From positions 19,096,001 through 19,160,000 of the forward strand of contig OZ024762.1 of assembly GCA_964016885.1 (NCBI GenBank): a stretch of 64,000 bases of DNA, in the 5' to 3' direction. Positions 2,909-60,487 of this stretch are shown here, one piece after another. Positions within the stretch are counted from its first letter, which is position 1; each line of letters opens with the position of its first letter. This DNA is from Eledone cirrhosa (lineage: Eukaryota). The notes beneath the pieces are model-generated. The model was not told the DNA's origin and made no database searches. It was given only the letters and a program-made list of their open reading frames with translations. Position numbers and translations under genes: made by a program.

Positions 2909-3084
2909 CGTAGGTCCCGGGTTGAGTCGGGGATAACCACAGTAAGTAAGGTACTCAATACATGGCAGAGTAAAATTTTTTTATTTTATAGAAGGAGCTT
3001 CTACAGGACTAGTACTGTTTCATTCAGATGAAATCTTCAGGATCTGAATGAAACAGTACTAGTCCTGTAGAAGCTCCTTCTATA
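2909..3084. mobile_element. Family A HHR fold-back element in (TA)n
   Basis: Tail with GGTACTCAATAC, minus-strand HHR 2996-3042 (stem I 5' arm truncated), then inverted copy ATCTGAATGAAACAG...GAAGCTCCTTCTA. Confidence 0.85.
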
Positions 3085-3153
3085 TATATATATATATATA
3101 TATATATAGTGACGAAACATAAGTCAATTGCATGAACTCATAATCCTTTATTT

Positions 3154-3209
3154 ACTGCTATATATATTTCAATGATAGCCATTGAATGGCTATGACCTCA
3201 TCAGGCAGT
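3154..3209 (-). ncRNA. Type I hammerhead ribozyme (family E; element ~3109-3480)
   Basis: Minus: ACTGC-CTGATGA-ggtc ATAGCCAT tca ATGGCTAT catt-GAAA-TATATA-TA-GCAGT; 5-bp stem I, palindromic stem III, AUA triplet, AATAAA downstream. Confidence 0.8.
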
Positions 3210-3542
3210 TAGTCAGTTCTTAGATATGCCAGCTCTGTGTGTATAGTGTTGATGGTATCAGAGCCTTGGGACATATGAGCTTGTTAGGAATACTTTGATG
3301 TTGTCAGCAGGAATAGTCTTGATTCTCATTGGTCAGTTTGTAGATGGTAGTAAGTTGGTATTTGACCCCAAAGAGGCAGGTGGTTCTGTACGGTTCAGAC
3401 CATCAGGCAAGATGACAATAGTTCCATATGACTGATTTTCACAAAAGGCATTATTGGTCAGATATATTTTCAAAACTGTGATATATATATATATATATAT
3501 ATATATAATATAAGATCAAAAGATGGTTAAAGGAGTTCCATG

Positions 3543-3613
3543 TATTTTATTATGCGCATTTCAAAAACGAACATCATCATGCAATAATATTTGTGTTTTC
3601 ATCAGATAAAACA
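3543..3613 (-). ncRNA. Mirror-image type I hammerhead ribozyme (family C)
   Basis: Reverse complement of 3732-3802 in the left palindrome arm. Confidence 0.85.
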
Positions 3614-3731
3614 GGAGAACATGATATGAAGGCTAAAAAACACTTGTGGATAGTGCAGTTTTAAATCAACATATGTTGATTTAAAACTGCACTATCCACA
3701 AGTGTTTTTTAGCCTTCATATCATGTTCTCC

Positions 3732-3802
3732 TGTTTTATCTGATGAAAACACAAATATTATTGCATGATGATGTTTGTTTTTGAAATGCGCATAATAAAA
3801 TA
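3732..3802 (+). ncRNA. Type I hammerhead ribozyme (family C)
   Basis: TGTTTTAT-CTGATGA-stem II (ACAAATATTA/TGATGTTTGT)-GAAA-TGCGCA-TA-ATAAAATA; palindromic stem III ATGCGCAT. Confidence 0.85.
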
Positions 3803-55770: not shown

Positions 55771-58499
55771 ATATTTATATGTATATGTGTGCGTGTACAC
55801 CCCCACATATATATGAATATATATATTCATACATACATTTAGATACGTTTTTATATGCATAGTACACATACATACATACACACACATATATTTATGCGTA
55901 CACAAATGCATACTTATATATCTGCCTGTATATTCATATACATGTGTGTGTGTGTGTTATATATTTATATATATGCATGTATGTATATAGACATATACAT
56001 ATGTGTGTGTATATATGTATTACATATGCTCACGTATGTATATAGACATATACATGTGTGTATGTGTGCGTGTATTACATATTTATATATGCATGTATGT
56101 ATATAGACATACATAGGTGTGTATGTATGTGTGTATTACATACTTATATATATGCATGTATGTATATACACATATACATGTGTGTGTGTATTACATATTT
56201 ATATATGCATGTATGTATGTAGACATACATACGTGTATGTGTGTTACATATCTATATATAAATGCATGTATGTATATAGACATATATATATGCATGTATA
56301 TAGACATATATATATGCATGTATGTATATAGACATATATATATATGCATGAATGTATATAGACATATATATATATGCATGTATGTATATAGACATATATA
56401 TATATATATATTCATGTATGTATATAGACATATATATATATATATGCATGTATGTATATAGACATATATATATATATGCATGTATGTATATAGACATATA
56501 TATATATATATATGCATGTATGTATATAGACATATATATATATATGCATGTATGTATATAGACATATACATATGTGTATGCCTTACATATGTACATGAAT
56601 GTGTGTGTGTGTGGACACACACAACTACAGAAATCTAGAGGTAGACGGAGGAGCAGATAATTTCTGACTCCTTGTGACTTATATATACACACATATATAT
56701 GCATATATATATATATATATATATATATATATATATATATATATATATATTATTATGATACCGTCAAATATTACTTGTACTAATGGAGATTGTAAAATTC
56801 AGTTGTTATATGGTGTTGTCCATTAGCTAATATTTTACCAACACAGCTTCTACTGTGGTATTATTTCACTGTCTGGCTTGGTAGCTTCTCTTGGAAAACC
56901 TATAGGAAATAAAATAATAGCAAATATATGTCAAAATATATACACCTACACACACATACACACATATATATATATATATATATATTATATATATATTATA
57001 TATGTGTGTGTGTGTGTGTGTGCGCGCATGTATATATATGTATATCTGCATATGTAATTGTTTAAATGTATGTATGTATGTCTGTATATATATATGTATA
57101 TATATAGGTATGTATGTATATATATAGGTATGTATGTATGTATGTATATATATATAGGTATGTATGTATGTATATATATATAGGTATGTATGTATGTATG
57201 TATATATATAGGTATGTATGTATGTATGTATATATATAGGTAGGTGTGTATGTATATATATATATGTATAAGTAGGTATGTATATATATATATAAGTAGG
57301 TATGTATATATATATATAAGTAGGTATGTATATATATATATATATATAAGTAGGTATGTATATATATATATATATATATAGGTATGTATATATATATATA
57401 TATATATATATAAGTAGGTATGTATATATATATATATATATAAGTAGGTATGTATATATATATATATAAGTAGGTATGTATATATATATATATAAGTAGG
57501 TATGTATATATATATATATATATATATAGGTATGTATGTATATATATAGGTATGTATGTATATATATAGGCATTATGTATATATATAGGTATGTATATAT
57601 ATATATATAGGTATTATGTATATATATAGGTATGTATATATATATATATAGGTATGTATGTATATATATAGGTATGTATGTATATATATAGGTATGTATA
57701 TATATATATATATCGGTATGTATATATATATATATATCGGTATGTATGTATATATATATAGGTATGTATGTATATATAGGTAGGTATGTATGTATGTATA
57801 TATAGGTAGGTATGTATGTATGTATATATAGGTAGGTAGGTATGTATGTATATATAGGTAGGTAGGTATGTATGTATGTATATATAGGTAGGTAGGTATG
57901 TATGTATGTATATATATAGGTAGGTATGTATGTATATATAGGTATGTATATATAGGTATGTATATATATGTGTGTGCCCACACTTATTCACACGCGTTTT
58001 AACAAGCGTATTACCTCGGGAATAAACAGAACAAATATATTGTTTTACTCTTAAGCACGCACCGGCTAATTCAGCTATGAATATGGATATATATTGAATA
58101 TTATATATTTATACAGGTGTATATGAATATATATTAAATATATATATACATTCAAACAAATGTGTATGAATATATATATATATGTAGATAAATCTACCAA
58201 AATATACGGTAGTGTCCAATCCGTATGAAGAACTCAATGTAATCCAAATATCATGAAAAGAGAAGATGCATTCAAAAATTTTCGATGAAAATCACAGGAA
58301 AACAGAGTCAAGATAAATTAATAAAAACAATGAATAAAAATAAAGAACAAGTTCCTTATATGAAAAATTTCATCATTTTACGATCGTTTCTAGGATATAT
58401 ATGTGTGTTGGTATGTATATCATATAGATCTATGTAAAAATATTACAAACTCTCAGAGGAAATATACATACCTTCACATACAGCATATATATGTGAAGT

Positions 58500-59232
58500 T
58501 CTCCAGAAGAGAGCAAACAGCTGATCTTCTTCGGCGCTCAGGAGCTCTCCGAGAATGTCATAGCTCTTCCCCTCCACTAGTTCTCTATAGAACGCCGAGG
58601 TGGATGTTCCACCGATACTGGTGCCCAGCTGGCAGAGGGTGGTGAGCGCCTGGAGACATTCCAGTTTCCAAGCGCTATCCCTCGGTCTTTTCCTGACCCA
58701 GGACTGCAGCTCCGTCAATGAGACGAGCTGTGGGAAAACGTGCCTGCCGAACGGCGACCACACATATTCACCGTCAAGGAAGCACCAGAGATGTCGCAGC
58801 CTGAGCGCATGTTTGCGCATCATCAGCCATGGCATGCCCAGTCCTCCATGCAACGGGTGTTGACAGCAGATGGATCGTCTGACCATGGGAGCGCGTCCCT
58901 TCCACAAAAAGCGGAAGAGGAGGCGCTCCATTTTGGTCAGAGTTGGGCCGGGGCAAGGGACGAGGGTGAGGCGGTAGCAGATGACGGATGTGATGTACGC
59001 ATTCGCCAGATCCGCCCGGCCTTTCAGAGACAGCTTCCTCTCGGCCCATTTCTGGGTGAGGGAGGCCACCCTGCTCGTCACCTCGCTCCAGTTTTTCTCC
59101 ATCTGGAGGTCCGGTCCGAACCAGACCCCGAACAATTTAACCGGTCCGTCCGTCCAATGCCCCACGACGCTGTCGGACGGCATGGACTTGCTTCTCCAGG
59201 TGCCTAGCTGCAAGCCCACCGACTTTTCCTGG
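58500..59232 (-). pseudogene. L1/Tx1-clade LINE ORF2 fragment (downstream of RT)
   Basis: VKLFGVWFGP...NWSEV...W.ERKLSLKGRA..AN.YI.S...YRL...LFRFLWKG...VRR.IC...GGLGMP. Confidence 0.92.
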
Positions 59233-59817
59233 TTTATCTTTGCAATAATAATAATAGTAATAAGTAAAGAAAAATGCTAATAAATAATATTTTACAAAAT
59301 GGTATTTCCTTCAAAACACAAAATAGTCTCGTTGTTCAAAAGATATTTTGTTGTTGGTGGTGTTGGTGTTAGTGGTGGTGTTGGTGGTGGTATTGGTGGT
59401 AGTGTTGGTGATGGTATTGGTGGTGGTGTTGGTGGTGGCATTGGCGTTTGTGTTGGTGCTGTTGGTGTTGATGTTGATGGTGTTGTTGCTGTTGGGTTTG
59501 TATTGTTTCTTAATCATAAAAACTAAGTCATGACTCATATTGTAAGTATTTACAATATTGTCTGGAAATTTAAAATAAATTTCCATATTTTCTTGACGAA
59601 AACAAAATGAAAGCACAAAGCCTACATCGTAAACAAACTCACTACAATTTGTACGTGTGTGTGTGTGGTGTGTGTACGTATGTGTGTGTTGATCGAAACC
59701 AAGACCACGTGTTTGTGAAGCGAATCTCTTAACCGCTCAGCTTTTACCTGCGTTCAATTTAACAGTGGAACTGACACAGTGTGATTCAGATATACATATA
59801 TATATATATATATATTA

Positions 59818-60297
59818 TGTCAGGTCACCAGTTGGTGCTACTGGTAACATGTATCCCAGTACAACCTGTCTCATGGTCGGGTCGTTGGCGACTAAACTGG
59901 CAACCCCACCAAGGTTTCTTGGTGGGGAGGGTGACTTTGGACATCCTGCAGGACTAAAAACAAAACCTGTCAAAGGGCAAAGGAGCTCTTAAGAGTCAAT
60001 GGCCATCCAAAATCACCGGGAGAGATGACCCCTTAGCCTTTGTCAAGGCAGAATTCTAGGAGAAGGAAAACTCTGATATAACACCTGCAACTCTGATGGT
60101 ATCCAATGATGTTGACTTGTTCTTCTTTTTGGTAAATATCATCTTGGTTAAGAGAGTGGGACTGGCTTTGTGCAGTGCCTTTGCTCACTATAAAAGCTTC
60201 ACGGCACAGGCATTGCTTTATATCTGGAGATCTCTGCATTTGTCGTCAGATGGTACCATGGGCCCAGCACTATGTGTCAATAATTGTCACAAGTGTA
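59818..60297 (+). mobile_element. Second copy of the 18549-19030 repeat
   Basis: Near-identical sequence. Confidence 0.85.
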
Positions 60298-60352
60298 ATA
60301 ATTGCTGGCCTTGTACCAAAAGTAGAAACAATTATTATTATTATCATATATA

Positions 60353-60487
60353 TATAGAAATGGCTTTTACAGGAATAGAATTGTTTCTTTCGAAGGAAAT
60401 CATCAGGCTTTTCTGGTTAAACATTGTATATACTCTATGCATTGAGTTCCTTACTTACTGTGGTTACCCCCGATCGAAACCGGGACG
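60353..60487. mobile_element. Family A variant: inverted HHR arm joined directly to tail
   Basis: Minus CTGATGA-TTTC cttc GAAA-GAAAC...CTGTA, then plus-strand tail TTGAGTTCCTTACTTACTGTGGTTACCCC. Confidence 0.75.

What the first reader, a model, noticed from the sequence alone, without database searches (positions are those of the whole stretch)
2909..60487. Family-fixed inversion endpoints suggest a two-primer insertion mechanism
Seen: fold-backs are asymmetric, with one arm running through the whole 3' tail and the inverted arm stopping at a family-specific AT-rich site. Family B stops at TTCCT(AT) (6431, 6662, 39649, 42835, ~54237, 55182); family A stops ~10-25 nt past stem I (3084, 10495, 38604, 43016, 44550, 60353). 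Inner junctions vary freely: no spacer, 66-nt spacer, or non-overlapping arms (39649-39735, 60353-60487). Inference: both target-DNA ends prime reverse transcription, one at the RNA 3' end and one at a fixed internal TA-like site, and the cDNAs join at variable points. Unlike L1 twin priming the same segment is duplicated, which would need a tandem, circular or dimeric RNA template. Established: inverted pseudo-LTRs with a tail are known in PLEs.
Basis: partly seen in the sequence, partly recalled or inferred. Interest (0 to 1): 0.75.

Follow-up and report, generated by a model that had tools for sequence, protein, structure and literature searches.

The report
Two-ended priming builds Penelope mirror insertions
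These mirror-image repeats are shortened copies of a known kind of jumping gene, and nearly every one pairs one long end with one short end at two fixed sites, which likely means that both cut ends of the target DNA each start copying the element's RNA; the layout is already described, but the strict pairing gives a way to test how these elements insert.

Summary
Families A and B are 5'-truncated, hammerhead-bearing Penelope-like elements with the protein motifs of the Hydra clade. In 1.2 Mb of random genome, all 31 fold-backs with both ends classed long or short pair one long with one short end. Both ends fall at a TAT of the element and abut (TA)n. In many copies neither arm contains the other, which argues for two separately primed cDNAs joined over 1-3 nt of microhomology. 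The long end is an internal site, not the RNA 3' end. Inner junctions cluster 41-45 nt upstream of the ribozyme cut, about 30 nt below a TATA-like box, so likely at the RNA 5' end. No circular or tandem template is needed. The layout is published, as are two internal start sites and extension of both strands in vitro (PMC11167929). I did not find the strict long+short rule in print. This scan has reported the same reading before, in this genome and others. One RNA read twice versus two RNAs is unresolved; no RNA data were available.

The parts
2906..3084 (.). Family A fold-back: long-ended arm 2906-3042 (antisense, +96 to -41) and short-ended arm 3043-3084 (sense, -28 to +15), 1-nt overlap
6237..6432 (.). 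Family B fold-back: long arm +103 to -41, short arm -39 to +20
6461..6663 (.). Family B fold-back in the same (TA)n tract: long arm to -44, short arm from -36
10291..10495 (.). Older family A fold-back; both arms end near -45, with one extra G between them
13836..13904 (-).
20890..21032 (+).
21873..21975 (+). Family A short-ended arm with full hammerhead; runs further upstream, partner not identified
38261..38605 (.). Young family A fold-back: long arm 38261-38434 (to -78), short-ended arm 38435-38605 reaching further upstream (past -122); neither arm contains the other
38505..38511 (+). TATAAAT, TATA-like box 29 nt before the inferred transcription start (A at 38534, position -45)
   Evidence: promoter function inferred
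38534..38584 (+). Type I hammerhead motif of family A: stem I AGCTTC/GAAGCT, core CTGAAGA..GAAA, predicted cut after GTA (38578), self-complementary loop III
   Evidence: read from sequence; stem I recovered by folding but z only -0.26; no hammerhead among the 150 of 494 Rfam rows shown
39647..39737 (.). Family B with non-overlapping arms: short-ended arm +20 to -41, long-ended stub +75 to +103
42687..42837 (.). Family B fold-back: long arm to about -2, short arm from about -25
42870..43016 (.). Older family A fold-back: long arm to -24, short arm from about -10
44361..44550 (.). Decayed family A fold-back
54064..54237 (.). Family B fold-back: long arm to -20, short arm from -40, 2-nt overlap
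55115..55184 (.). Family B: long arm stopping inside the tail (+38) plus short-end stub, 5-6 nt overlap
60351..60487 (.). Older family A with non-overlapping arms: short-ended arm +15 to about -40, long-ended arm from about +25

Best explanation
These are truncated insertions of two Penelope-like retroelements with Hydra-clade motifs, in which one arm ends at a long site and the other at a short site of the element, likely because the enzyme cuts both strands of a (TA)n tract and each 3' end primes its own reverse transcription on the same RNA. SHOWN here: two fixed outer ends, both at a TAT of the element and both internal to the unit; a strict long+short pairing; arms that are not subsets of each other; microhomology or small templated inserts at the join; inner ends clustered at -41 (B) and -45 (A). 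INFERRED: the target's ..ATA-3' ends pair with UAU at each site. Two enzyme subunits sit on one RNA, each next to one of two similar bulged hairpins, which would force one start of each kind. The upstream-moving long-site enzyme displaces the first cDNA, so the same segment is copied twice. Most copies run off the capped 5' end of the transcript. The two cDNA 3' ends anneal over 1-4 nt or at a palindrome and are filled in by repair.
For: Pairing: 31 of 31 block pairs with both ends classed are L+S, none L+L or S+S; 4 further B pairs had one intermediate end. Selected on a long-end stub only, 30 of 30 partners do not read through the tail (28 clean S ends). Selected on a short-end stub only, 28 of 29 partners reach L (one mis-selected locus dropped, itself L+S; two loci are duplicates). 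Selected on the junction only, 15 of 15 have one S and one read-through arm. Independence: the short-ended arm reaches further upstream in 23 pairs, the long-ended in 6, with 7 ties (blocks+window). L061 has S 3.9 kb and L about 0.6 kb; L068 has L 4.0 kb and S 0.19 kb. One pattern finds 152 long-end stubs joined to an arm starting near -40. S-ended arms in L203, L206 and L210 carry ORF-start sequence absent from their L arm. Join: 7 of 8 asymmetric, insert-free long junctions share 2 nt or more, against 18% by chance. 5' boundary: TATA-like boxes at -29 (A) and -30/-31 (B) from the hot spot; unexplained base before B -41 is G 8, A 2, C 1 among 100 listed junctions read by eye. Same template: an arm is closer to its partner than to other copies (A 0.042 vs 0.119, n=25; B 0.079 vs 0.139, n=32), and pairs with one arm at the hot spot and the other far past it are rare (A 0 of 30, B 3 of 81). 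Matching bulged hairpins follow both B sites. In vitro precedent: two start sites, both strands nicked and extended, predicted dimer (PMC11167929).
Against: All mechanism is inferred from DNA. The cap signal is mixed: among 50 junctions with both arms reaching -41, the next antisense base was A 63, G 18, C 15, T 4 of 100 arms, where a cap predicts C. Five long A insertions are symmetric at short palindromes (L022, L025, L028, L066, L223/224), which snap-back explains equally well. Arm similarity also fits two RNAs of one active subfamily or later gene conversion; the own partner was the nearest copy in only 14 of 25 (A) and 11 of 32 (B). The class-concordance count is confounded by query selection and subfamily age. 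Exceptions exist: L202 is short-ended on both sides with different subfamily variants, and L013 scored S+S in a nested cluster. Solo arms occur. In family A the full bulged hairpin was not the minimum-energy fold at either site. PMC11167929 saw no difference in start site between strands. Target-site duplications could not be read inside (TA)n.
Confidence: 0.62

Rival explanations
1. Two primings as above, but on two RNA molecules held together (for example through the self-complementary hammerhead loops), one used at each site.
For: Loop III is self-complementary in both families (ACTAGT, GAGCTC) and such ribozymes are thought to work as dimers (PMC4209133). No strand displacement is needed. 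L202 carries two subfamily variants.
Against: A symmetric two-RNA complex gives no reason for 31 of 31 long+short pairs. Arms mostly share subfamily and end class.
Confidence: 0.2
2. One priming at the long site; the cDNA folds back and copies itself to the short site (self-priming, as proposed in PMC3846280), and later deletions at the palindrome centre create asymmetry.
For: Symmetric junctions at palindromic motifs (5 long A copies; several B copies). Arm-arm similarity. Instability of DNA palindromes (recalled).
Against: The short-ended arm is the further-reaching one in 23 of 29 unequal pairs. Non-overlapping copies number 152 for one pattern. L061 would need a one-sided 3.3-kb deletion. 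S arms contain template jumps into the ORF start.
Confidence: 0.12
3. The template is a circular or multimeric RNA made by hammerhead cleavage and ligation (retrozyme-like).
For: Both families carry a hammerhead motif, and partial tandems exist (L063, L055, L202-L211).
Against: Only about 4 of 79 B arms end within 10 nt of the ribozyme cut. Most stop at -41, where a circle has no end. The units are 4-kb protein-coding elements. Uncleaved RNA was the main substrate in vitro (PMC11167929).
Confidence: 0.04
4. The short palindromes are a MITE-like lineage copied as finished units.
For: The commonest B junction recurs (..GGACTCCAG..).
Against: Dozens of distinct junctions in every subfamily. Arms continue into an RT-endonuclease ORF. 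The termini are unequal.
Confidence: 0.01

Closest known systems
Hydra clade of endonuclease-bearing Penelope-like elements (Craig et al. 2021, PMC8557442)
   Same: RT plus C-terminal GIY-YIG, DKT, CxCX5C linker, no CCHH, CxxC and CxH around the conserved E and N, hammerhead, insertion into (TA)n, inverted truncated copy with a one-sided tail.
   Different: RWR rather than RWK. Family A unit is 4.25 kb (described members generally under 3 kb). Tails are 70-83 nt rather than 30-40. The paper ascribes the tail to endonuclease resolution, not to two primings.
Poseidon of Anolis carolinensis in vitro (Frangieh et al. 2024, PMC11167929)
   Same: Two internal RT start sites flanking the tail, both target strands cut and extended, AT-rich target, predicted dimer, uncleaved RNA as template.
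   Different: There the start lies in an AC-rich stem-loop not homologous to the target and strands showed no site preference. Here both sites are TAT matching (TA)n and the two ends pair strictly long+short. The main text I read does not model the inverted join.
L1 twin priming (passages of PMC11702581)
   Same: The second target end primes internally on the RNA, giving an inverted segment joined by end joining.
   Different: In L1 the first primer is at the poly(A) end, the second site is set by chance microhomology, and the segments abut within 1-10 bp. Here both sites are fixed and internal and the arms usually duplicate 55 nt to 1 kb.
Self-priming model for Penelope palindromes (Arkhipova et al. 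2013, PMC3846280)
   Same: Head-to-head inverted pLTRs, optional tail, palindromes at the junction, TATA and initiator motifs in the pLTR.
   Different: It predicts the second arm is copied from the first; here it often is not.

Membership tests
EN+ Penelope-like elements | Single ORF with RT and C-terminal GIY-YIG endonuclease | tested here: met
   A: YRDD core and LVY..YIG..R..H domain in L061/L063. B: pieces in L211 and block 3. Copies are broken. Pfam gave no hit above cut-off; 34 homologues at E<=1e-30, many marked PF26215.
EN+ Penelope-like elements | Partial tandems forming pseudo-LTRs; inverted truncated copy; one-sided tail | tested here: met
   L063, L204, L207, L211; pairs
EN+ Penelope-like elements | Hammerhead motif in the pLTR | tested here: met
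   A canonical core. B has the U3-A8 core variant described in PMC4209133. Cleavage activity not tested.
Hydra clade | DKG modified to DKT | tested here: met
   A SDKTKN, B SDKTGN
Hydra clade | CxCX5C linker, CCHH absent, CxxC and CxH flanking E and N | tested here: met
   A CNCPDKTTC, CDLC, CMH, one Cys between the GIY and YIG equivalents. B CNCPDRSTC read from L054 (first Cys changed in the block 3 copy), CNLC, CKH.
Hydra clade | RWK motif | tested here: inconclusive
   Both families have RWR
Hydra clade | Insertion into (TA)n | tested here: met
   Median pure TA tract 22 nt on each side; 64 of 85 B rows have 8 nt or more on both sides (the 85 include about 7 internal tandem junctions)
Hydra clade | Placement in an RT tree with named Hydra elements | not tested
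   No named reference sequences were fetched
L1-type twin priming | First primer at the RNA 3' end; segments abut within a few bases | tested here: not met
   The long end is internal and arms usually overlap by 55 nt or more
Non-LTR retrozymes | Non-coding tandem hammerhead units, circular RNA | tested here: not met
   Coding 4-kb units; ends not at the cut site. Circular RNA itself could not be tested.
MITE | Equal terminal inverted repeats, one conserved interior | tested here: not met

The most novel reading that the evidence does not exclude
Hydra-type Penelope elements insert by an obligate asymmetric double priming: an RT dimer on one RNA starts at two hairpin-marked UAU sites from both ends of a cut TA repeat and copies the same RNA segment twice by strand displacement, so the inverted pLTR and tail are the normal product of every insertion, not an accident.
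Probability: 0.5. Interest if true: 0.65.

Novelty: new variant of a known kind. Interest (0 to 1): 0.45.

Why it matters
How Penelope-like elements, the closest relatives of telomerase, form their inverted ends and one-sided tail is called open in PMC8557442, and the one in vitro study leaves the later steps unvalidated (PMC11167929). A strict long+short rule, target-matching UAU start sites and a 5' run-off boundary turn that into specific tests. It would also mean that many palindromes in this 3-Gb genome are made anew at each insertion and should not be annotated as MITEs or microRNA hairpins (the 150 best Rfam matches shown were all microRNA models below threshold). The advance is a refinement of a known architecture, and this scan has reached it before.

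Tried and rejected
RNA evidence: no RNA holder listed, so circular RNA, ribozyme cleavage and the transcription start were not tested. The three runs found are contigs of at most one sample, possibly the assembly's own. Unmasked repeat finding was swamped by (TA)n. Rfam showed no hammerhead among the 150 of 494 rows listed. A 60-nt family B query found nothing. Target-site duplications: 23 rows with a short TA tract on one side gave two weak TA-rich candidates and nothing convincing. Whether the TA tract pre-exists or is partly written by the enzyme was not resolved. The diagnostic-variant count (B 71 concordant, 46 discordant; A 64 and 11) is inflated by loci chosen with a query carrying two private variants and by CpG decay, so I replaced it by the distance test without those loci. 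An unbiased test of B arms that pass the -41 zone could not be completed; only pairs already held were counted. The cap test on double -41 junctions was ambiguous. In family A young copies -45 is usually read through in the query-selected loci (42 of 46 templated). Literature: six searches found no statement of a strict long+short rule. Subscription papers are not covered, supplementary figures of PMC11167929 are not held (text search empty), and bioRxiv supplements are closed.
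Full report
What is there. The window lies in a 3-Gb animal genome rich in (TA)n. Positions below are counted from the predicted hammerhead cut; L is the long end and S the short end.

Identity. Following young copies outwards gives protein-coding elements. [quoted passage not shown] The proteins carry DKT, a CxCX5C linker, CxxC and CxH, and lack CCHH. 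These are the features given for the Hydra clade in section 11 of PMC8557442. RWK is RWR here and no tree was built. Each family has a type I hammerhead motif on the sense strand; B has the U3-A8 core variant mentioned in PMC4209133 (passages).

Outer ends are fixed and internal. In twelve 100-kb blocks from twelve chromosomes, chosen without regard to content, 62 of 79 B arms end at +19..22 or +97..103 and 30 of 34 A arms in the two zones; none reads past L. Summed contig depth on the B reference falls about 40-fold in the bin after +100, and on A from about 500,000 to about 100 across the long end (one sample, possibly the assembly's own, and depth is not copy number). At tandem junctions the element continues from L into the ORF start, so L is not an RNA 3' end. 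At both sites the element reads TAT (A short end: TAT or the A/T-rich zone after it), matching the TA repeat that follows. I infer priming by 3-nt pairing.

The ends pair strictly. Of 35 block pairs, 31 have both ends classed and all 31 are L+S; the other four have one intermediate end. Three pattern searches fixed one feature and left the far ends free. After an L stub, 30 of 30 partners stop before the tail (28 clean S). After an S stub, 28 of 29 partners reach L. For junction-selected copies, 15 of 15 have one S and one read-through arm. Exceptions seen: L202 (S on both sides, two subfamily variants) and L013 (nested cluster). Solo arms also occur.

The arms are made separately. If the second arm were copied from the first it could not reach further upstream. 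The S-ended arm reaches further in 23 pairs, the L-ended in 6, with 7 ties. L061 has a 3.9-kb S arm against about 0.6 kb, and L068 the reverse. One exact pattern finds 152 copies in which an L stub is joined to an arm starting near -40. S arms in L203, L206 and L210 jump into ORF-start sequence that their L arm lacks. Seven of eight asymmetric, insert-free long junctions share 2-3 nt, against 18% expected; five junctions with inserts or in low-complexity runs and five symmetric ones were left out of that count. The symmetric ones sit at palindromic motifs and fit either snap-back or annealing of two like-sense cDNAs.

Inner ends are not free. 42 of 79 B arms stop at -45..-26 and 20 of 34 A arms at -49..-30; 7 of 9 strand-switch joints in contigs have one side at -42..-39. 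The hot spots (B -41 in TTAGT, A -45 in CCAG) lie about 30 nt below TATTTAT and TATAAAT, the spacing of a TATA box (recalled). An unexplained base before B -41 is G in 8 of 11 cases among the 100 of 152 junctions listed (read by eye), as a copied cap would give. The test on double -41 junctions was ambiguous (C 15, G 18, T 4, templated A 63). I treat the transcription start as likely, not shown. Few arms end at the ribozyme cut.

Template. Partner arms resemble each other more than other copies and rarely mix hot-spot and far-upstream ends (confounded by selection). Two arms ending at one 5' boundary need neither a tandem nor a circle. A bulged hairpin of the same shape folds 3-6 nt after each B site in five of six tandem copies, with a looser second hairpin in the sixth (lead from earlier notes). 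In A the same pairing can be drawn by eye but only part is the minimum-energy fold. One RNA with two bound subunits best explains the strict pairing; two RNAs remain possible.

Comparison with what is known. The inverted truncated copy with a tail on one side is standard for these elements (PMC8557442, PMC3846280; passages). PMC11167929 (parts 1-2 of 4 read, covering the main text) shows two internal start sites bounding the tail, cutting and extension of both strands, and a predicted dimer, but no strand preference and no model of the join. PMC3846280 proposed self-priming. L1 twin priming differs in using the 3' end and in giving abutting segments (PMC11702581, passages). Passages of 10.64898/2026.07.22.740005 and PMC13282606 added nothing on mechanism. 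Six searches found no statement of the strict rule. Earlier notes of this scan report double priming, the start inside the ribozyme and twin hairpins in this and other genomes; they are not independent support.

Verdict. A real feature; new members of a known clade; a well-supported refinement of a known insertion architecture. Two separate primings about 0.85, on one RNA about 0.62. Interest 0.45.

Noticed in passing
window 3507-3925 and 3982-4327; blocks in L081-L200: Roughly 15-20 further fold-back families in (TA)n show the same one-sided layout with family-specific tails of about 35-125 nt.
   Followed up: partly
L202, L203, L205, L206, L210, L055: Partial tandems in which an arm reaching about -41 jumps to a variable point 190-370 nt downstream of the cut, in the ORF start; a likely route to new pseudo-LTRs.
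   Followed up: partly
window 38290-38325 and 42725-42760: Families A and B, otherwise unalike, share GTATTGAGTAC in the tail, the 3' strand of a bulged hairpin.
   Followed up: partly
block C5:30000001, positions 46042-47260 (L125): A family B insertion, duplicated within a larger palindrome, whose long arm ends at another TAT at +64..66: a possible minor start site.
   Followed up: no
window 2740-3420, 6237-6663, 42687-43016: Insertions of different families are chained in one TA tract, each landing beside the last.
   Followed up: no
block C3:100000001, positions 66120-66590 (L107): A fold-back that appears symmetric out to both ends, unlike the rule; could be a MITE or a long+long case of another family.
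   Followed up: no
L002:1460-1830: A family A insertion whose two flanks are themselves inverted copies, as if it landed at the apex of an older fold-back.
   Followed up: no
L066, L028, L223/L224: Three independent insertions turn at the same 25-nt palindromic TA stretch of the 3' UTR (-890).
   Followed up: partly
window 58500-59240: GC-rich stretch that looks like a fragment of a LINE-type coding sequence on the minus strand; not translated or searched.
   Followed up: no
block C7:30000001-30100000 (L131-L140): No family A or B copy, few microsatellites and 713 local inverted matches, unlike the other blocks.
   Followed up: no
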